Shown in pieces: positions 8,731-63,511 of a DNA stretch of 64,000 bases. The notes under the pieces are model-generated. The model was not told where the DNA came from. It saw nothing but the letters and a program-made list of their open reading frames with translations, and made no database searches. A program made the translations under genes and the position numbers. The stretch covers positions 23,560,001 through 23,624,000 of the forward strand of contig OZ024752.1 in assembly GCA_964016885.1 (NCBI GenBank), written 5' to 3'. How positions within the stretch are numbered: position 1 is the first letter of the stretch; every line of letters begins with the position of its first letter. The stretch is from Eledone cirrhosa (taxonomy: Eukaryota).

Positions 8731-8788
8731 TCCATTTACCAGTGGTTTCTTAAAAGCAAAAGGTTTTGCTTTCAATCCTCAGAATGAA
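8731..8788 (-). ncRNA. Type I hammerhead ribozyme motif (same family as 32035-32239)
   Basis: Reverse complement TTCATT-CTGAGGA-TTGAAAGCAAAA-cc-TTTTGCTTTTAA-GAAA-CCACTGG-TA-AATGGA. Confidence 0.75.
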
Positions 8789-8894
8789 AAATCCTGGTTT
8801 GTTTATTGAATATGGATATATATATATATAGTGGTGGAACACTGGAAGGTAATATCCGTAGTGGTAGAGCACTCAGTCCATGGGACGAGTTAGG

Positions 8895-11814
<2,920 letters not shown>

Positions 11815-32004: not shown

Positions 32005-32034
32005 TATATATAATAAACAGCATAAGATAATTAT

Positions 32035-32093
32035 TTCATTTACCGGTGGTTTCTTGAAAGCAAACAAAATTTGCTTTCAGTCATCAGAATGAA
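32035..32093 (-). ncRNA. Type I hammerhead ribozyme motif (inverted copy)
   Basis: Reverse complement TTCATT-CTGATGA-CTGAAAGCAAATTTTGTTTGCTTTCAA-GAAA-CCACCGG-TA-AATGAA. Confidence 0.78.
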
Positions 32094-32180
32094 AAATTCC
32101 TGGTGTATTTATTGACAGTGGATTTTAAAAACCTGACAGTGGTTTTTAAAATCCACTGTCAATAAATACACCAGGATTTT

Positions 32181-32239
32181 TTCATTCTGATGACTGAAAG
32201 CAAATTTTGTTTGTTTTCAAGAAACCACTGGTAAATGAA
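32181..32239 (+). ncRNA. Type I hammerhead ribozyme motif
   Basis: TTCATT-CTGATGA-CTGAAAGCAAATTTTGTTTGTTTTCAA-GAAA-CCACTGG-TA-AATGAA. Confidence 0.8.
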
Positions 32240-32734
32240 ATACTTATCTTATGTTGTTTATTACATAATAAGCTCTGTAACCTACATTGAGCACTCTTTT
32301 TTCCTGGACCTTTCCAACGGAATTACTTCATATATATATATCTTTCTTACTCTCTCTCTCTCTCTCTCTCACTGTCTCCCTCTTTCTCACTTTCTCCCCC
32401 TCTCTCTCTCTCCCTATTTCTTTATTTTGGATATGCCCTACCACCTGCATCACTTATACTATCTTTCAAATATGGGATGTGTTATTCAAGAATTAAGTTT
32501 ATAAATATTCCAAGGGTGAGTAATTTGTAGAATTTAATACAGTGTCTCGCAAAATATATTTGCCTGTGTTTGGTTATGGTTCTTTATCTTCAGAGTTGAA
32601 AATCATGCTGAGGTCAACCTCATTTTTATTCCTCTAAGAGCGATCAAATAATCACCAGTCAGAGAATGGTGTCAATCTAAACGACTGTTCTCTTTTCTTA
32701 TAAATGTGTCTATATACGAAATGTCTAATATAGG

Positions 32735-45942: not shown

Positions 45943-46163
45943 AGGTATATATATGTATATATATGTATCTGTATATGTATATATGTATATATATGTATCT
46001 GTATATGTATATATGTATATATATGTATCTGTATATGTATGTATGTATATATATGTATATATCTGTATGTATGTATATATATGTATATATATGTATGTAT
46101 ATATATGTATATATCTGTATGTATGTATATATATGTATATATATATATGTATGTATATATATT

Positions 46164-46201
<38 letters not shown>

Positions 46202-46599
46202 TGTATATATATGTATATATAGGTATATATATATATGTATATATATGTATATATATGTATATATATATATGTATATATATGTATATATATATATGTATAT
46301 ATATATATGTATATATATGTATATATATGTATATATATATATGTATATATATGTATGTATATATATGTATATATATATATGTATATATATGTATATATAT
46401 ATATGTATATATATGTATATATAAATATATATATGTATATATATATATGTATATGTATATATATATATATGTGTATATGTATATATATATATATGTATAT
46501 ATATATATGTATATATATATATGTATATATATATATGTATATATATATGTATATATATATATGTATATATATGTATATATATATATGTATATATATATG

Positions 46600-46636
<37 letters not shown>

Positions 46637-46683
46637 GTATATATATATATGTATATATCTATATATGTATATATATATATATG

Positions 46684-46764
<81 letters not shown>

Positions 46765-47727
46765 GTATATATATATATGTATATATATATATGTATATAT
46801 ATATATATGTATATATATATATGTATATATATATATGTATATGTATATATATATATGTATATATATATATGTATATATATATATGTATATATATATATGT
46901 ATATATATATATGTATATATATATATGTATATATATATATGTATATATATATGTATATATATATGTATATATATATATGTATATATATATGTATATATAT
47001 ATATGTATATATATATGTATATATATATGTATATATATATATGTATATATATATGTATATATATATATGTATATATATATGTATATATATATATGTATAT
47101 ATATATGTATATATATATATCTATATATATATATGTATATATATATATGTATATATATATATGTATATATATATGTATATATATATGTATATATATATGT
47201 ATATATATATATGTATATATATATGTATATATATATATGTATATATAAATATGTATATATATATATGTATATATAAATATGTATATATATATATGTATAT
47301 ATATATGTGTATATATATATGTGTATATATATATGTATATATATATATGTATATATATATATGTATATATATATATGTATATATATATGTGTATATATAT
47401 ATGTGTATATATATATGTATATATATATATGTATGTATATATATGTATATATATATATGTATATATATGTATATATATATATATATGTATATATATGTAT
47501 ATATATATATATATGTATATATATGTATATATATATATATATGTGTATATATGTATATATATATATATGTATATATATATATGTATATATATGTATATAT
47601 ATGTATATATATATATGTATATATATGTATATATATATGTATATATATATGTATATATATATGTATATATATGTATATATATATATGTATATATATATGT
47701 ATATATATATATGTATATATATATATG

Positions 47728-47776
<49 letters not shown>

Positions 47777-47991
47777 GTATATATATATGTATATATATAT
47801 ATGTATATATATATATATGTATATATATGTATATATATATATGTATATATATATGTATATATATGTATATATATGTATATATATATGTATATATATGTAT
47901 ATATATGTATATATATATGTATATATATATGTATATATATATATGTATATATATGTATATATATATGTATATATATATATGTATATATATG

Positions 47992-48022
<31 letters not shown>

Positions 48023-48195
48023 GTATATATATATATGTATATATATGTATATATATATATATGTATATATATATATGTATATATATGTATATATATATAT
48101 ATGTGTATATATATGTATATATATGTATGTATATATATATATGTATATATATATGTATATATATATGTGTATATATATGTATATATATATATTTG

Positions 48196-48226
<31 letters not shown>

Positions 48227-48313
48227 GTATATATATATATGTGTATATATATGTATATATATATATGTATATATATATGTATATATATATATGTATATAT
48301 ATGTATATATATG

Positions 48314-48344
<31 letters not shown>

Positions 48345-48375
48345 GTCTATATATATATATATGTATATATATATG

Positions 48376-48406
<31 letters not shown>

Positions 48407-49459
48407 GTATATATATGTATATATATATATGTATATATATATATGTATATATATGTATATATATATATGTATATATATGTATATATATATATATGTATAT
48501 ATATATGTATATATATGTATATATATATGTATATATATATGTATATATATGTATATATATATGTATATATATATGTATATATATATGTATATATATGTAT
48601 ATATATATGTATATATATATGTATATATATGTATATATATATGTATATATATGTATATATATATATGTATGTATATATATATGTATATATATGTATATAT
48701 ATATATGTATGTATATATGTATATATATTTATATATATATATATGTATATATATGTATATATATATATGTATATATATTTATATATATATATATGTATAT
48801 ATATGTATATATATATATGTATATATATATGTATATATATATGTATATATATATATGTATATATATATATGTATATATATATGTATATATATATGTGTAT
48901 ATATATATGTATATATATATGTGTATATATATATGTATATATATATATGTATATATATGTATATATATATATGTATATATATGTATATATATATATGTAT
49001 ATATATGTATATATATATATATGTATATATATGTATATATATATATGTATATATATATGTATATATATGTATATATATATATGTATATATATATGTATAT
49101 ATATGTATATATATGTATGTATATATATGTATATATATGTATATATATGTATGTATATATATGTATATATATGTAAATATATGTATGTATATATATGTAT
49201 ATATGTATATATATATGTATATATATATATGTATGTATGTATATATATGTATATATATATATGTATATATATGTATATATATATATGTAAATATATGTAT
49301 ATATATATATGTATATATATGTATATATGTATATATATGTATATATATATGTATATATATGTATATATATATATATGTATATATATATGTATATATATAT
49401 ATATGTATATATATATGTATATATATGTATATGTATATATATGTATATGTATATATATG

Positions 49460-49494
<35 letters not shown>

Positions 49495-49547
49495 GTATAT
49501 ATATGTATATATATGTATATGTATATATATGTATATGTATATATATG

Positions 49548-49578
<31 letters not shown>

Positions 49579-49751
49579 GTATATATATGTATATATATGT
49601 ATATGTATATATATGTATATATATGTATATATATATATGTATATATATGTACATATATGTATATATATATATATATATGTATATATATGTATATATATAT
49701 ATATGTATATATATGTATATATATATATATGTATATATATGTATATATATG

Positions 49752-49816
<65 letters not shown>

Positions 49817-50315
49817 GTATATATATGTATATATATGTATGTATATATGTATATATATATGTATATATATGTATATATATGTATATATATGTATATATAT
49901 ATGTATATATATGTATATATATGTATATATATATGTATATATATGTATATATATATATTTATATATATATGTATATATATGTATATATATATATTTATAT
50001 ATATATGTGTATATATATATATTTATATATATATGTATATATATATGTATATATATATATTTATATATATATGTATATATATATGTATATATATATATTT
50101 ATATATATATGTATATATATATATTTATATATATATGTATATATATATATTTATATATATATGTATATATATGTATATATATATATTTATATATATATGT
50201 ATATATATGTATATATATATATGTATATATATGTATATATATATGTATATATATGTATATATATGTATATATATATATGTATATATATATGTATATATAT
50301 ATATGTATATATATG

Positions 50316-50346
<31 letters not shown>

Positions 50347-50559
50347 GTATATATATATATGTATATATATGTATATATATATATATGTATATATATATAT
50401 GTATATATATGTATATATATATATATGTATATATATATATGTATATATATGTATATATATATATATGTGTATATATATGTATATATATGTATGTATATAT
50501 ATATATGTATATATATATGTATATATATATGTGTATATATATGTATATATATATATTTG

Positions 50560-50590
<31 letters not shown>

Positions 50591-50713
50591 GTATATATAT
50601 ATATGTGTATATATATGTGTATATATATGTATATATATATATGTGTATATATATGTATATATATATATGTGTATATATATGTATATATATATATGTGTAT
50701 ATATATGTATATA
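45943..50713. repeat. (TA)n-derived satellite with G-containing variants and internal kb-scale duplication
   Basis: Direct reading; rare-variant pattern at ~48090-48250 recurs at ~50450-50610. Confidence 0.95.
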
Positions 50714-53700
50714 TGAATATAGACATAGAATATTCGAAAATATTCTGTATGTTTATAATAAACATTTTGAAGACCTAATCGCTATAGAATAGAATACGTC
50801 ACGTATTACAATTAGATTCTCGATAATTTCTAATTTCTGCCGGACCGGCAACCGCTCTTTCAAACCAGCTCCTGTACACAGCTAAGTATTCTATAAGTCT
50901 CTAGCTGTGTCATTCTCGATAAAAGCACTGGATATGTAGTCCTGATGATTTCTAACGAGAATGAAACGCGTAGATTACTTCCCTTGCTTTTATCGAGAAT
51001 CTAATTGTAATACGTGACGTATTCTATTCTATAGCGATTAGGTCTTCAAAATGTTTATTATAAACATACAGAATATTTTCGAATATTCTATGTCTATATT
51101 CACATATATATCGCTATTTCAGAGCATTTATTCCAATTTCTAATTTCTGCCGGACCGGCAACCGCTCTTTCAAACCAGCTCCTGTACACAGCTAAGTATT
51201 CTATAAGTCTCTAGCTGTGTCATTCTCGATAAAAGCACTGGATATGTAGTCCTGATGATTTCTAACGAGAATGAAACGCGTAGATTACTTCCCTTGCTTT
51301 TATCGAGAATCTAATTGTAATACGTGACGTATTCTATTCTATAGCGATTAGGTCTTCAAAATGTTTATTATAAACATACAGAATATTTTCGAATATTCTA
51401 TGTCTATATTCACATATATATCGCTATTTCAGAGCATTTATTCCAATTTCTAATTTCTGCCGGACCGGCAACCGCTCTTTCAAACCAGCTCCTGTACACA
51501 GCTAAGTATTCTATAAGTCTCTAGCTGTGTCATTCTCGATAAAAGCACTGGATATGTAGTCCTGATGATTTCTAACGAGAATGAAACGCGTAGATTACTT
51601 CCCTTGCTTTTATCGAGAATCTAATTGTAATACGTGACGTATTCTATTCTATAGCGATTAGGTCTTCAAAATGTTTATTATAAACATACAGAATATTTTC
51701 GAATATTCTATGTCTATATTCACATATATATCGCTATTTCAGAGCATTTATTCCAATTTCTAATTTCTGCCGGACCGGCAACCGCTCTTTCAAACCAGCT
51801 CCTGTACACAGCTAAGTATTCTATAAGTCTCTAGCTGTGTCATTCTCGATAAAAGCACTGGATATGTAGTCCTGATGATTTCTAACGAGAATGAAACGCG
51901 TAGATTACTTCCCTTGCTTTTATCGAGAATCTAATTGTAATACGTGACGTATTCTATTCTATAGCGATTAGGTCTTCAAAATGTTTATTATAAACATACA
52001 GAATATTTTCGAATATTCTATGTCTATATTCACATATATATCGCTATTTCAGAGCATTTATTCCAATTTCTAATTTCTGCCGGACCGGCAACCGCTCTTT
52101 CAAACCAGCTCCTGTACACAGCTAAGTATTCTATAAGTCTCTAGCTGTGTCATTCTCGATAAAAGCACTGGATATGTAGTCCTGATGATTTCTAACGAGA
52201 ATGAAACGCGTAGATTACTTCCCTTGCTTTTATCGAGAATCTAATTGTAATACGTGACGTATTCTATTCTATAGCGATTAGGTCTTCAAAATGTTTATTA
52301 TAAACATACAGAATATTTTCGAATATTCTATGTCTATATTCACATATATATCGCTATTTCAGAGCATTTATTCCAATTTCTAATTTCTGCCGGACCGGCA
52401 ACCGCTCTTTCAAACCAGCTCCTGTACACAGCTAAGTATTCTATAAGTCTCTAGCTGTGTCATTCTCGATAAAAGCACTGGATATGTAGTCCTGATGATT
52501 TCTAACGAGAATGAAACGCGTAGATTACTTCCCTTGCTTTTATCGAGAATCTAATTGTAATACGTGACGTATTCTATTCTATAGCGATTAGGTCTTCAAA
52601 ATGTTTATTATAAACATACAGAATATTTTCGAATATTCTATGTCTATATTCACATATATATCGCTATTTCAGAGCATTTATTCCAATTTCTAATTTCTGC
52701 CGGACCGGCAACCGCTCTTTCAAACCAGCTCCTGTACACAGCTAAGTATTCTATAAGTCTCTAGCTGTGTCATTCTCGATAAAAGCACTGGATATGTAGT
52801 CCTGATGATTTCTAACGAGAATGAAACGCGTAGATTACTTCCCTTGCTTTTATCGAGAATCTAATTGTAATACGTGACGTATTCTATTCTATAGCGATTA
52901 GGTCTTCAAAATGTTTATTATAAACATACAGAATATTTTCGAATATTCTATGTCTATATTCACATATATATCGCTATTTCAGAGCATTTATTCCAATTTC
53001 TAATTTCTGCCGGACCGGCAACCGCTCTTTCAAACCAGCTCCTGTACACAGCTAAGTATTCTATAAGTCTCTAGCTGTGTCATTCTCGATAAAAGCACTG
53101 GATATGTAGTCCTGATGATTTCTAACGAGAATGAAACGCGTAGATTACTTCCCTTGCTTTTATCGAGAATCTAATTGTAATACGTGACGTATTCTATTCT
53201 ATAGCGATTAGGTCTTCAAAATGTTTATTATAAACATACAGAATATTTTCGAATATTCTATGTCTATATTCACATATATATCGCTATTTCAGAGCATTTA
53301 TTCCAATTTCTAATTTCTGCCGGACCGGCAACCGCTCTTTCAAACCAGCTCCTGTACACAGCTAAGTATTCTATAAGTCTCTAGCTGTGTCATTCTCGAT
53401 AAAAGCACTGGATATGTAGTCCTGATGATTTCTAACGAGAATGAAACGCGTAGATTACTTCCCTTGCTTTTATCGAGAATCTAATTGTAATACGTGACGT
53501 ATTCTATTCTATAGCGATTAGGTCTTCAAAATGTTTATTATAAACATACAGAATATTTTCGAATATTCTATGTCTATATTCACATATATATCGCTATTTC
53601 AGAGCATTTATTCCAATTTCTAATTTCTGCCGGACCGGCAACCGCTCTTTCAAACCAGCTCCTGTACACAGCTAAGTATTCTATAAGTCTCTAGCTGTGT

Positions 53701-55788
53701 CATTCTCGATAAAAGCACTGGATATGTAGTCCTGATGATTTCTAACGAGAATGAAACGCGTAGATTACTTCCCTTGCTTTTATCGAGAATCTAATTGTAA
53801 TACGTGACGTATTCTATTCTATAGCGATTAGGTCTTCAAATGTTTATTATAAACATACAGAATATTTTCGAATATTCTATGTCTATATTCACATATATAT
53901 CGCTATTTCAGAGCATTTATTCCAATTTCTAATTTCTGCCGGACCGGCAACCGCTCTTTCAAACCAGCTCCTGTACACAGCTAAGTATTCTATAAGTCTC
54001 TAGCTGTGTCATTCTCGATAAAAGCACTGGATATGTAGTCCTGATGATTTCTAACGAGAATGAAACGCGTAGATTACTTCCCTTGCTTTTATCGAGAATC
54101 TAATTGTAATACGTGACGTATTCTATTCTATAGCGATTAGGTCTTCAAAATGTTTATTATAAACATACAGAATATTTTCGAATATTCTATGTCTATATTC
54201 ACATATATATCGCTATTTCAGAGCATTTATTCCAATTTCTAATTTCTGCCGGACCGGCAACCGCTCTTTCAAACCAGCTCCTGTACACAGCTAAGTATTC
54301 TATAAGTCTCTAGCTGTGTCATTCTCGATAAAAGCACTGGATATGTAGTCCTGATGATTTCTAACGAGAATGAAACGCGTAGATTACTTCCTTGCTTTTA
54401 TCGAGAATCTAATTGTAATACGTGACGTATTCTATTCTATAGCGATTAGGTCTTCAAAATGTTTATTATAAACATACAGAATATTTTCGAATATTCTATG
54501 TCTATATTCACATATATATCGCTATTTCAGAGCATTTATTCCAATTTCTAATTTCTGCCGGACCGGCAACCGCTCTTTCAAACCAGCTCCTGTACACAGC
54601 TAAGTATTCTATAAGTCTCTAGCTGTGTCATTCTCGATAAAAGCACTGGATATGTAGTCCTGATGATTTCTAACGAGAATGAAACGCGTAGATTACTTCC
54701 CTTGCTTTTATCGAGAATCTAATTGTAATACGTGACGTATTCTATTCTATAGCGATTAGGTCTTCAAAATGTTTATTATAAACATACAGAATATTTTCGA
54801 ATATTCTATGTCTATATTCACATATATATCGCTATTTCAGAGCATTTATTCCAATTTCTAATTTCTGCCGGACCGGCAACCGCTCTTTCAAACCAGCTCC
54901 TGTACACAGCTAAGTATTCTATAAGTCTCTAGCTGTGTCATTCTCGATAAAAGCACTGGATATGTAGTCCTGATGATTTCTAACGAGAATGAAACGCGTA
55001 GATTACTTCCCTTGCTTTTATCGAGAATCTAATTGTAATACGTGACGTATTCTATTCTATAGCGATTAGGTCTTCAAAATGTTTATTATAAACATACAGA
55101 ATATTTTCGAATATTCTATGTCTATATTCACATATATATCGCTATTTCAGAGCATTTATTCCAATTTCTAATTTCTGCCGGACCGCAACCGCTCTTTCAA
55201 ACCAGCTCCTGTACACAGCTAAGTATTCTATAAGTCTCTAGCTGTGTCATTCTCGATAAAAGCACTGGATATGTAGTCCTGATGATTTCTAACGAGAATG
55301 AAACGCGTAGATTACTTCCCTTGCTTTTATCGAGAATCTAATTGTAATACGTGACGTATTCTATTCTATAGCGATTAGGTCTTCAAAATGTTTATTATAA
55401 ACATACAGAATATTTTCGAATATTCTATGTCTATATTCACATATATATCGCTATTTCAGAGCATTTATTCCAATTTCTAATTTCTGCCGGACCGGCAACC
55501 GCTCTTTCAAACCAGCTCCTGTACACAGCTAAGTATTCTATAAGTCTCTAGCTGTGTCATTCTCGATAAAAGCACTGGATATGTAGTCCTGATGATTTCT
55601 AACGAGAATGAAACGCGTAGATTACTTCCTTGCTTTTATCGAGAATCTAATTGTAATACGTGACGTATTCTATTCTATAGCGATTAGGTCTTCAAAATGT
55701 TTATTATAAACATACAGAATATTTTCGAATATTCTATGTCTATATTCACATATATATCGCTATTTCAGAGCATTTATTCCAATTTCTA
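50714..55788 (+). mobile_element. Retrozyme-like tandem array: 16 x 310-bp hammerhead-containing monomers with a 113-bp inverted 5' copy
   Basis: Period 310 (TAATTTCTGC at 50831, 51141, ...); 50714-50826 is the reverse complement of part of the monomer; each unit has GTAGTC-CTGATGA-TTTCTAACGAGAAT-GAAA-CGCG-TA-GATTAC. Confidence 0.85.
50912..51000 (+). ncRNA. Minimal type I hammerhead ribozyme (first of 16 copies)
   Basis: Core CTGATGA 50942-50948 and GAAA 50963-50966; stem II TTCT-aacg-AGAA; palindromic stem III ACGCGT; GUA cleavage after 50972; stem I GTAGTC/GATTAC extended by a perfect 16-bp helix 50912-50927/50985-51000. Confidence 0.88.
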
Positions 55789-55872
55789 TATGTATATATA
55801 TATATGTGTATATATATGTATATATATATATGTATATATATATGTATATATATATATGTATATATATGTATA

Positions 55873-55917
<45 letters not shown>

Positions 55918-55948
55918 GTCTATATATATATATATGTATATATATATG

Positions 55949-55979
<31 letters not shown>

Positions 55980-56072
55980 GTATATATATGTATATATATA
56001 TATGTATATATATATATGTATATATATGTATATATATATATGTATATATATGTATATATATATATATGTATA
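55789..56072. repeat. (TA)n-derived satellite
   Basis: Direct reading; resembles ~48226-48500. Confidence 0.9.
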
Positions 56073-58232
56073 TAACTTTGAATAACTTTGAAATGTTTTG
56101 GCCAGTATTGGCCCAGGCCATGTCTAACTTAATAGCACCACCTGGCGAAGTCTTTCAATTCAGAATTTGGGCACCATGGCCCATTCGAGAAGAGAATTAC
56201 TGTTTGCGGAGACATATCCGGGTGTGGGTGGTTTGTCCGGGATTACTTGGAGGAATTTGTCCAAAGACTTCTTGAATTTTGTGTGGTCAGTTTCTGTTTT
56301 GACGTGTCCTGGTGTGATGTTGAAGAGAGCAGGGCCGATTGAGGTGAAATAATTGTGCCGTATTGTTGTTATGAGTTGCGATTTAGATTTTGAATGGGAC
56401 GGATAGCACGGGGCCCAAGCCTTGGGTGTATCTTGAAGGCGATGCCAACATCATTTGGGCAGTGATGATGGAACATTTTCCACATCATGCAGATAATATA
56501 ACGCTCACGGCGACGTTGGAGTGAGTAAAGTTTCAGGTTTTCCAATCGACCCCAGTAGTCAAGGTCTGACATGCCATCTATCTTTTTCGTGATTGCCCTT
56601 TGAGGAGCTTCAAGTTTCATGATACTTTGTTTCGTGTGGGGAGACCACAGTGGACAACAGTATTCAAGGTGTGGTCGGGCGAAAGTAGAGAAGAGAAGGA
56701 TAATGGTGCGGGAATCTCTCGACTGGAAGGTTCTGAGGATCCAGGAACACATTCTGCGGGCCATGTCAACTTTGCTGCTTATATGCGTGGTCCAGCTTAT
56801 GTTGCTGTCCACGGTTACTCCCATGTCTCTGATGTTGTTAGATGCCACGAGAGTTTCCCGGAGGGAAGGGAGTACGGGAGTTTCAGAGCATCCTCTTTTC
56901 CAAAGTGGATCAGTTCGAATTTGTCTTCGTTCAGTAACATGTTGTTCTTTTCTGCCCATTGGGTAACAGCCAGTAGGTCTGACTGAAGCTTATCCGGTCA
57001 TCCACGCCATTGATGACCTTTTGGAGCTTGGAATCATCAGCGAAAATTTTAATGTTGCTGTGTTTGATGATGTCAGTGATGTCATTAATATAGATGATGA
57101 AGAGAAGTGGGCCCAACACAGTGCCTTGTGGGACTCCACTACTGACTTTGGCTGGGCTTGATTTGACTCCCTCAACTACAACATGTTGGGTTCTGTTTGA
57201 CAGGAAGCTCTTGATCCACTGCAGCAGCTTTCCAGTGACACCAATATTGGACAGCTTTCTCAGTAGAATGTTATGATCAACCCTGTCAAAGGCCTTGCTG
57301 AAATCAAGGTAGATAACATCAGTGTTGGAACCCTCTCCCAAGGCTCTCAAAATGTCATCAAAGTGATGCAGTAGTTGCGTCAGGCAATCCCTTCCATTAC
57401 GGAATCCATGCTGGTTGGAGTTCAGCATATTGTTACTCTCAAGGAAGTGGGTCATTCGCGATCTCACCACTCGCTCAAATACCTTAATGATATGAGAGGT
57501 GAGTGAGATTGGACGGTAATTCACGGCAAGGGATTTGTTTCCCTTTTTGAAAACTGGGACAACAGACTGGGATAGAAGGTTTTCTGGCACATATCCAGCA
57601 TCCAGTGAGTTCCGCCACAGATTGGCAAGAGGAGAAGCAAGTTGGTGTTGACACGCCTTCAAGACACAAGCAGGGAACCTATCGGGACCTACTGCTGAAT
57701 TATGCTTGATTTCCTTTATTGCCGCCAAGACATCAGGGGCGCCAAACGTTATGTCCGATAAGGTGTAATGGGGAGTAACATCGCCGATACAGCCCAGATC
57801 GGCCATATCAGGATTGCTGAAAACAGAGCAGTATTGTTTCTGCAGTATCTCACCCATAGTTTTAGCATTGTCTTGAAGAGTGCCATTTTCATCAATTAGA
57901 GGGCCAACAGTAGAGCCAGTGATTTTGTGTTTTTTTGCAAATGAAAAGAACACTTTGGGATTGAGTTTGATCTTCTCAATGGCCCAGGCCTCTTCAGCTC
58001 TTCTCTGATTGTTGATGAGGGACATTATGTTGTTTTGGAGGTTATGTTTTTTAATCTCTAGTGATGAAATGGCAGTCAAGTTGATGTGTTGCTGCTGACA
58101 GTATTTCAGCTTGTTGATTTTTTTGTTCGTTCTCTTAATTTTTCTGATGAGCGTTTTTCTATTTCTAGGGATTCTGCTCTTAGATTTGTTTATAGTTCTT
58201 AATGGGGTGTGTTTAGCACATATGTTTGTAAC
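56073..58232 (-). mobile_element. CR1/L2-like LINE (second family), 5'-truncated and frameshifted
   Basis: ORFs 56931..58079 and 56369..56959: [69 protein letters not shown]; tail (TTCAAAGTTA)x2. Confidence 0.93.
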
Positions 58233-63129: not shown

Positions 63130-63400
63130 TTTCGTTGCTGATTTGTGCCGACAAAAAAAATAGTTCGTTCAATTCTACTATTAAGGATGGTTTTGCTGAA
63201 ATTAAGAATTACAGAGCCTGCATTGGGACATACCAATCTGATAGGCCTTTGCTTTTGACAATATTGCCCAACTGATCTCGTACTCTATGTTTGCATTCTT
63301 GAGTTGCCAGATTTTGTTGGCGAGTGTTGTTGTTTTTGAGAGATACTTGTTAATCATAGAATGTCTGTGTACGCACCACCTTTTCTTAAATTCACCATGC
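63130..63400 (-). pseudogene. GIY-YIG endonuclease C-terminal remnant of a Penelope-like element
   Basis: FKKRWCVHRHSM...TTLANKIWQLK...YEISWAILSKAKAY...CRLC, then LNSRIE in a shifted frame. Confidence 0.75.
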
Positions 63401-63408
63401 CGAGCTAC

Positions 63409-63511
63409 CTGACGAAATGATGGAGATAACATGTATTTTAAATTGAGTGGCACTGCCTTTAGTGTTTAGCAATTTTTAGACAACTCTATCATAGAAACAA
63501 TTGTTAGACTG
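63409..63511 (+). ncRNA. Hammerhead motif lacking the 5' strand of stem I
   Basis: CTGACGA-AATGATGGAG...CTCTATCATA-GAAA-CAATTG-TT-AGACTG; the missing CAGTCT arm is retained in the other pLTR copy (minus strand, 62040-62045). Confidence 0.65.

What the first reader, a model, noticed from the sequence alone, without database searches (positions are those of the whole stretch)
50714..50826. Inverted 5' copy and possible long TSD at the array: Penelope-type integration signature
Seen: the array is preceded by 113 bp that are the reverse complement of monomer sequence just downstream of the hammerhead core, joined through a 2-nt AA overlap. The flanks share ~30-35 nt (GTATATATATATATGTGTATATATATGTATATAT) as a possible target duplication. 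Known: Penelope-like insertions often have an inverted pseudo-LTR at the 5' junction. Inference: the array was inserted as one retrotransposition event rather than expanded by unequal crossover.
Basis: partly seen in the sequence, partly recalled or inferred. Interest (0 to 1): 0.7.

Follow-up and report, generated by a model that had tools for sequence, protein, structure and literature searches.

The report
Two-armed Penelope-type retrozyme insertion
The 113-base inverted piece is the short arm of a two-armed insertion of a small, protein-free jumping element with a predicted self-cutting RNA motif, one of well over a thousand in this animal genome, and the shared layout suggests that both ends of the cut host DNA copied one small RNA, likely a circle, round after round using a borrowed Penelope-type enzyme.

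Summary
The inversion is real. 50714-50826 is the exact reverse complement of monomer positions 166-278 and joins a 16-unit, 310-bp hammerhead array through a 2-nt overlap. The 30-35-nt target duplication is not supported. The family duplicates about 9-13 nt; here 39 = 13 + one 26-nt period of the flank. The family has over 1,200 insertions in (TA)n. Of 59 two-armed copies parsed, 58 have one arm ending at site A and the other at site B, about 30 nt further on, which is the Penelope 'tail'. Usually both arms are multimers, they share one haplotype, and they join by microhomology. One daughter is uniform for a variant pair found elsewhere only as isolated monomers of a mosaic array. Best reading: a non-autonomous retrozyme, twin-primed by a Penelope-type enzyme, likely rolling on one RNA circle. 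The longest arrays also expanded locally. Cleavage, circles and the driver enzyme are untested. The scan reported this family before on other pieces of this genome (e1-8668780, e1-8805910).

The parts
45946..50714 (.). Target: long TA/TG microsatellite; its last 107 bp (50608-50714) are 26-nt periodic, which produces the apparent 39-nt duplication
50702..50714 (+). Left copy of the likely target-site duplication (13 nt at most, 10-13 given junction ambiguity); its 3' end is the inferred primer of arm A
   Evidence: length taken from the family
50714..50826 (-). Arm A: exact reverse complement of monomer r166-r278, outer end at fixed site A
50825..50826 (.). 2-nt overlap (microhomology) at the head-to-head junction of the two arms
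   Evidence: family enrichment 32 of 44 direct joins
50825..55788 (+). Arm B: 16 tandem 310-bp units plus 7-8 nt, outer end at fixed site B; all 16 units carry 45C, which no other array in the assembly has fixed
50912..50999 (+). Type I hammerhead of unit 1 (repeated in every unit): core starts at 50942, extended helix I, U-U at the base of helix II, 2-bp helix III with a palindromic hexamer, predicted cut after 50972
   Evidence: sequence read directly, constrained fold, fold z -3.98; no Rfam hammerhead hit
51102..51111 (+). Site A in unit 1 (r278-r287): a short AU-alternating tract complementary to the (TA)n target; outer end of one arm of each insertion
51112..51142 (+). 'Tail' between site A and site B (B ends at r312-r320, mostly r313), present at only one end of each insertion
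55787..55799 (+). Right copy of the likely target-site duplication; the bottom-strand 3' end here is the inferred primer of arm B
55787..56074 (.). Rest of the target microsatellite

Best explanation
This is one insertion of a young, non-coding hammerhead-bearing repeat (an animal non-LTR retrozyme) made of two head-to-head arms, likely written by a Penelope-type RT/GIY-YIG enzyme that primed from both cut target strands and likely copied one small RNA circle repeatedly. Steps: (1) Arrays would be transcribed, cut by the hammerhead after r148 and ligated to 310-nt circles. This is inferred from published retrozymes and was not tested. (2) The enzyme would cut (TA)n on both strands about 10-13 nt apart, leaving 3' overhangs. 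The TSD length and the target are shown; the cut geometry is inferred. (3) One overhang starts at site A, where the RNA has a complementary AU tract, and the other starts at site B about 30 nt downstream, with 1-3 nt of match. The strict A/B pairing is shown; priming is inferred. (4) Each RT would roll around the same template for a random distance, mean about 1.5 kb. Multimeric arms, a shared haplotype and exponential-like lengths are shown; circularity is inferred. (5) The two cDNA 3' ends would anneal through 1-7 nt and prime each other's second strand, which gives the head-to-head junction. The microhomology is shown. Here arm A stopped after 113 nt and arm B reached 16 units. (6) A minority of arrays later grow by local duplication (shown).
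For: Exact end motifs occur 1,069 (B) and 1,243 (A) times, with 0 in the reversed-pattern controls. 58 of 59 two-armed elements have one A end and one B end. Both arms exceed 330 bp in 45 of 58 and 620 bp in 35 of 58. The 116 arm lengths fit an exponential (mean 1,548 bp, KS p 0.37), and A and B lengths are uncorrelated. Inner ends are spread round the monomer, with 2 of 116 near the ribozyme cut against 4.1 expected. Overlaps of 2 nt or more occur in 32 of 44 direct joins against 18% by chance. There are 24 haplotypes among 54 loci, yet the arms agree in 111 of 113 variant comparisons. Length does not rise with divergence (rho 0.06, n 53), and 24 of 53 loci have no unfixed substitution at a median 2.5 kb. 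Monomer bottleneck: 45C is in 26 units genome-wide, all 16 of this array and 10 scattered units. 267G+279T is in all units of both arms of two loci plus one terminal unit elsewhere. In a 47-unit mosaic arm (L149/L150), 48A is in 8 non-adjacent units, each preceded by a 162A unit, and locus L158 has 48A+162A in 6 of 6 units of both arms. A GIY-YIG-encoding PLE family in the same genome shows the same two-ended head-to-head layout in (TA)n (L127). In vitro, a PLE protein cuts and extends both strands from two RNA sites that define the tail (PMC11167929).
Against: No RNA data: the run search listed no RNA holder, so expression, cleavage and circles are untested. No autonomous PLE sharing the monomer's ends was found among the PLE loci examined. 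Block duplications in long arrays (L035/L036 18-unit, L054 7-unit; mosaics in L078/L151 and L149/L150) prove that local recombination also builds arrays. The mosaic-to-uniform case is a single pair, and most 48A loci lack 162A, so L149 is not their source. The 111 concordant comparisons are inflated by two near-universal variants (45T, 133A). L064 switches 114A to G within one arm. Eight sampled elements have only one arm. Loci were picked by an end motif on one contig, and arrays longer than the 10-kb regions were left out of the length fit.
Confidence: 0.65

Rival explanations
1. The same two-strand priming by a PLE enzyme, but on a long, uncut linear transcript of an existing array, so no circle is needed.
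For: PAc prefers unprocessed RNA in vitro and its hammerhead is dispensable for insertion (PMC11167929). A homogeneous source would give homogeneous arms, and sub-lineages such as 48A (324 units) fit master loci.
Against: Linear copying cannot fix a new variant in every unit. 45C is fixed only in this array, and L158 is uniform for a pair that, among the loci I checked, exists elsewhere only as isolated monomers. The forward arm does not start next to site A as a single linear template would suggest (6 of 58 against 6.9 expected).
Confidence: 0.17
2. A PLE inserts a short, one- to two-unit inverted element, and each arm later grows in place by unequal crossover, as satellites do.
For: Local amplification is proposed in bioRxiv 10.64898/2026.07.22.740005. 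Block duplications are seen in long arrays. This arm is unusually long (P about 0.04).
Against: Both arms are multimeric in 45 of 58 copies, including copies with no unfixed substitution, and there is no age-length trend. Arms shorter than two units have little repeat to recombine on.
Confidence: 0.08
3. The RT makes multimers by jumping end to end on linear, ribozyme-cut monomers instead of rolling on a circle.
For: It also passes through a monomer bottleneck, and the 114A/G switch inside one arm of L064 could be a template switch.
Against: There is no pile-up of inner ends at the cut (2 of 116), no recurrent indels at r148/149 in the arrays inspected, and haplotypes do not mix although 24 co-exist.
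Confidence: 0.07
4. The inversion arises by fold-back self-priming on an antisense template, as proposed for rotifer Penelope elements, or is an assembly artefact.
For: Palindromes at inverted junctions are reported in PMC3846280.
Against: Only 3 of 58 junctions are within 10 nt of palindromic, against 3.9 expected. The two outer ends differ by a fixed tail and are bounded by TSDs in unique flanks, which a fold-back chimera would not give.
Confidence: 0.03

Closest known systems
Metazoan non-LTR retrozymes (Cervera and de la Pena 2020, PMC7229834; passages and Discussion read)
   Same: About 300-bp low-GC tandem units, each with a type I hammerhead; no ORF; TSD longer than 4 bp. The U-U base of helix II and the 2-bp helix III resemble HHR_Amex2. 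The paper proposes that an RT copies the circRNA into tandem cDNA and names PLEs as candidates.
   Different: The main text has no occurrence of 'inverted', 'orientation' or 'microsatellite'. Two multimeric head-to-head arms with fixed A and B ends are not described there. Supplementary Fig. S9 (the model) was not seen. Circles were shown there and not here.
[quoted passage not shown]
   Same: Retrozymes as non-autonomous PLE dependants.
   Different: Its evidence is co-occurrence and pLTR phylogeny. In the parts read it analyses no junctions or TSDs, and it suggests that arrays grow by local amplification. Its supplements are closed.
EN+ Penelope-like element insertions (Arkhipova et al. 2013 PMC3846280, passages; Craig et al. 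2021 PMC8557442, passages and the Hydra section)
   Same: Inverted 5'-truncated copy, head-to-head layout, 30-40-bp tail at one end only, 8-10-bp TSDs in rotifer copies, (TA)n bias in the Hydra clade, and multicopy non-autonomous Chlamys derivatives.
   Different: No RT or endonuclease ORF here; both arms are multimers of one 310-bp unit; junctions are microhomologous and not palindromic.
PAc (Poseidon of Anolis) in vitro (Frangieh et al. 2024, PMC11167929; parts 1-2 of 4 read)
   Same: Both target strands are cut and extended, from two internal RT start sites that bound the tail; a dimer is predicted.
   Different: In vitro the two strands showed no difference in start site and the sites were not homologous to the target. 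Here each insertion uses one site per strand, and site A is complementary to the (TA)n target.
LINE-1 twin priming (recalled, not from a call)
   Same: Second target strand primes an inverted segment; microhomology at the inversion point.
   Different: No poly(A) end, the arms overlap in sequence many times over, and the second start is fixed.

Membership tests
Metazoan non-LTR retrozyme | Short tandem units (about 300 bp), GC under 50% | tested here: met
   16 x 310 bp; 108 of 310 bases are G or C, 35%
Metazoan non-LTR retrozyme | Type I hammerhead in every unit | tested here: met
   Core, helices I-III and palindromic helix III read from the sequence and a constrained fold. Of 7 lineage variants at paired helix I positions, 6 keep a pair alone and the seventh (162) is compensated by 102 in an older subfamily but not in L149/L158. 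Rfam gave no hammerhead hit.
Metazoan non-LTR retrozyme | No protein-coding capacity | tested here: met
   Longest Met-started ORF in a trimer is 30 aa
Metazoan non-LTR retrozyme | TSD larger than 4 bp | tested here: met
   9-13 nt in 7 of 58 loci against a null mean of 0.6; 5 of 12 testable loci gave no informative match
Metazoan non-LTR retrozyme | Self-cleavage and accumulation as circular RNA | not testable with these tools
   No RNA holder listed
Penelope-like element insertion type | Inverted 5'-truncated copy, head-to-head | tested here: met
   38 of 40 consecutive B-end loci and 37 of 44 consecutive A-end loci are two-armed
Penelope-like element insertion type | 30-40-bp tail at one end only | tested here: met
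   A end r278-287, B end r312-320, in 58 of 59 two-armed elements
Penelope-like element insertion type | Microsatellite target bias | tested here: met
   TA tracts at both outer ends in the flank listings; partly built into the end patterns used for sampling
Autonomous Penelope-like element | RT plus GIY-YIG ORF | tested here: not met
   No ORF; the element is non-autonomous
Derivative of a named PLE pLTR | Sequence shared with the terminus of an autonomous PLE | tested here: inconclusive
   No shared ends in the 35 GIY-YIG/PLE regions and 10 other ORF-bearing regions blasted. 26 of 28 nt of the hammerhead core match another repeat family whose link to a Hydra-like ORF is doubtful.
LINE-1-type twin priming | Forward arm starts beside the second priming site; poly(A) 3' end | tested here: not met
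   6 of 58 against 6.9 expected; ends run straight into (TA)n. The defining features are recalled.

The most novel reading that the evidence does not exclude
Each insertion is the fossil of one Penelope-type RT dimer that primed both target strands at two fixed sites on a single hammerhead RNA circle, rolled around it in both active sites, and closed the gap by letting the two cDNAs prime each other. This one mechanism would explain the head-to-head inversion and one-sided tail of all endonuclease-bearing PLEs, and the birth of retrozyme arrays. The circle is a clonal bottleneck that fixes RNA-level changes, possibly including A-to-I edits, into DNA.
Probability: 0.45. Interest if true: 0.8.

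Novelty: new variant of a known kind. Interest (0 to 1): 0.6.

Why it matters
Two questions are left open in the papers read: how Penelope-like elements form their inverted ends and one-sided tail (PMC8557442 calls for an in vitro system; PMC3846280 proposes antisense self-priming), and whether animal retrozyme arrays are written by an RT on a circle or grow in place (PMC7229834 against the 2026 preprint). A family of roughly 2,000 young insertions (estimate from the overlap) on a 310-nt template gives exact start sites, stagger, run lengths and junction rules. These can be tested with a purified PLE protein and a synthetic circle. An RT that writes kilobase multimers from a small circle into a defined target would also matter for gene-insertion tools. 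The specific locus is an ordinary member with a short A arm.

Tried and rejected
Long TSD: rejected. Rfam scans gave only low-complexity miRNA hits and no hammerhead family. A DNA search of G000 with the 3' half of the monomer returned nothing, which is uninformative because the tool skips common words. Partner search: GIY-YIG scan, 20 further regions, blastn at word size 7, and reading of ORF-downstream ends found PLE families with the same layout but none sharing the monomer's ends. Expression: no RNA holder listed. The monomer lies as a closed 340-nt contig in 3 of 3 contig sets laid and in none of 1,938 million raw DNA letters of a fourth run. A closed contig does not separate circle from tandem array. 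All four runs of the control call (X1 and X10 shared) also hold a LINE-like repeat of G000, so the spread over 18 coded organisms is not evidence of horizontal transfer of the retrozyme. No empty allele could be tested. Locus-private test with 48A failed as designed: it is a 324-unit sub-lineage. The single 267G unit is a terminal unit of L148, not a clear source. Most 162A hits belong to an older 312-bp subfamily (11 of the 12 loci fetched for it). Palindromic self-priming and L1-type geometry: rejected. Literature: searches found no paper describing two multimeric arms or A/B pairing for retrozymes. The library lacks most subscription papers, and supplements were not read. The organism was not determined.

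Full report
Observation. The array is 16 units of 310 bp plus 7-8 nt at 50825-55787/8, set in a TA/TG microsatellite. Units are identical except four single-base deletions. 50714-50826 is the exact reverse complement of monomer r166-r278 and overlaps the array by 2 nt. This part of the finding is confirmed.

The target duplication. The flanks match over 39 nt, but that 39-mer recurs at 26-nt steps upstream. The only matching lengths are 1, 3, 5, 13 and 39, and a cut without duplication gives 36 nt or more at 10-15% of positions in this satellite. Of 58 loci, 46 cannot hold 30 nt. Seven duplicate a non-TA interruption at 9-13 nt, against a shuffled mean of 0.6. Five of the 12 loci with an interruption near a junction gave no such match. 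The TSD here is most likely 10-13 nt (50702-50714 = 55787-55799 at most); the extra 26 nt is one period of the flank.

The monomer. Each unit has a type I hammerhead: core from 50942, a long helix I, a 4-bp helix II with U-U at its base, and a 2-bp helix III with a palindromic hexamer. The predicted cut is after r148. This is the form described as active in dimers (PMC4209133, passages). Rfam did not detect it. Lineage variants mostly keep helix I pairs, one lineage closes the helix II U-U to A-U, and the only core position that varies is N7. There is no ORF over 30 aa.

The family. An exact hammerhead 35-mer occurs 4,085 times in G000. End motifs occur 1,069 and 1,243 times; 23 of the first 38 B hits pair with an A hit, which suggests about 2,000 insertions. 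I examined the window, 9 loci from a similarity search, and 60 regions on C1: 40 consecutive B-end hits and the 20 A-end hits not paired with them. L076 was dropped as a duplicate of part of L077. Of 59 complete two-armed elements, 58 have one outer end at site A (r278-287) and one at site B (r312-320); L037 is the exception. 38 of 40 B-selected and 37 of 44 A-selected elements are two-armed. Eight elements are one-armed, one has a 7-nt stub, and one runs into a gap. L041 has an extra inverted piece, and L086 has 272 nt of other DNA at the junction.

How the arms are built (58 elements). Both arms exceed one unit in 45. Lengths look exponential (mean 1,548 bp; the KS test is lenient because the mean was fitted, and arrays cut by region edges were excluded). 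Inner ends show no significant clustering round the monomer, avoid no register clearly, and do not pile at the ribozyme cut. The two inner registers are unrelated, and only 3 junctions are near-palindromic. Direct joins overlap by 2 nt or more in 32 of 44 (chance 18%); 14 junctions have inserted bases. There are 24 haplotypes among 54 loci, yet arms agree in 111 of 113 comparisons, many of which concern two common variants. Length does not track divergence.

One template, one monomer. All 16 units here carry 45C. Genome-wide only 10 other units match that motif, and they are scattered. 267G+279T fills both arms of two loci. In a 47-unit mosaic arm, 48A occurs in 8 separate units, each just downstream of a 162A unit, so a monomer cut at the ribozyme would carry both. 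L158 has both in 6 of 6 units across both arms. A linear multimer of the mosaic could not give that. It is one case, a hidden uniform source is possible, and the 12 other 48A loci examined lack 162A.

Evidence against a pure one-step origin. Long arrays show block duplications and mosaics (L035/L036, L054, L078/L151, L149/L150). Unequal exchange therefore acts on some arrays. This arm (4,964 bp) is in the upper 4% of the fitted distribution, so some later growth cannot be excluded here.

The driver. G000 holds many GIY-YIG hits and long RT ORFs. The L127/L119/L125 family shows a head-to-head layout with one short and one roughly 50-nt longer end in (TA)n. The L075 ORF has DKT and CxCx5C motifs as described for Hydra PLEs, which target (TA)n. 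None shares ends with the monomer, so the partner is unidentified. Older sister repeats share the r207-r73 module and the same two-ended layout.

Comparison. It meets every testable feature of a metazoan non-LTR retrozyme (PMC7229834) and shows the PLE insertion signature (PMC3846280, PMC8557442). The two ends match the two RT start sites and both-strand extension of PAc in vitro (PMC11167929). I found no paper with two multimeric same-haplotype arms or strict one-site-per-strand pairing; supplements were not read. Earlier scan notes reach the same reading for this family and for others. My reading was recorded before I saw them, and they are not independent support. One note suggested RNA editing: A>G makes up 10 of 33 distinct fixed variants against 4 of 72 singletons, but polarity is uncertain and helix-preserving selection could give the same excess.

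Verdict. The inversion is a real Penelope-type signature and the long TSD is an artefact of the flank. The locus is an ordinary member of a family whose layout supports twin priming on a single small RNA, likely circular (0.65). New variant of a known kind; interest 0.6.

Noticed in passing
window 8822-9058: A different small head-to-head element with a hammerhead-like motif on each arm (8962 minus, 8991 plus), one arm longer than the other, between TA tracts.
   Followed up: partly
window 32011-32310: A third family, also head-to-head with unequal arms in (TA)n; hammerhead-like motifs at 32087 minus and 32187 plus, with a long helix II; a further copy at 8782 minus.
   Followed up: partly
window 63211-63426 (minus): Fragment similar to the C-terminal part of the Hydra-like PLE ORF of L075 (46% identity).
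   Followed up: no
window 10285-11649 (plus): 455-codon open frame that reads by eye like a LINE-type reverse transcriptase fragment.
   Followed up: no
L149+L150 (G000:C1:217795036-217810058) and L078+L151: 45-47-unit mosaic arms with interspersed variant units and block duplications; candidate master loci.
   Followed up: partly
L064 and L069: Position 114 switches between A and G inside one arm: four outer units A then G in L064, one unit A in L069. This could be editing of the template during copying, or a template switch.
   Followed up: partly
L084 8695-9211, L100 6704-7391, L048, L046, L050: Another tandem, partly inverted repeat of about 590 bp in (TA)n with no hammerhead seen by my pattern.
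   Followed up: no
L084 6600-6900, L093, L126, L139: Abundant hammerhead family whose core and helix II match this monomer at 26 of 28 nt; two-ended head-to-head copies with a tail of about 70 nt.
   Followed up: partly
L139, L146, L102, L046: Older sister families (about 320-bp units; 1,956 exact matches to one motif) share the module around sites A and B but have a different or decayed ribozyme region.
   Followed up: partly
L062: Two copies of the same element with the same junction about 3 kb apart, a local segmental duplication.
   Followed up: no
Runs X1-X20: The monomer is held at 56-89% of sampled words in runs coded as 18 organisms. The four runs tested also hold a LINE-like repeat of G000, so relatives or carry-over are likely.
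   Followed up: partly
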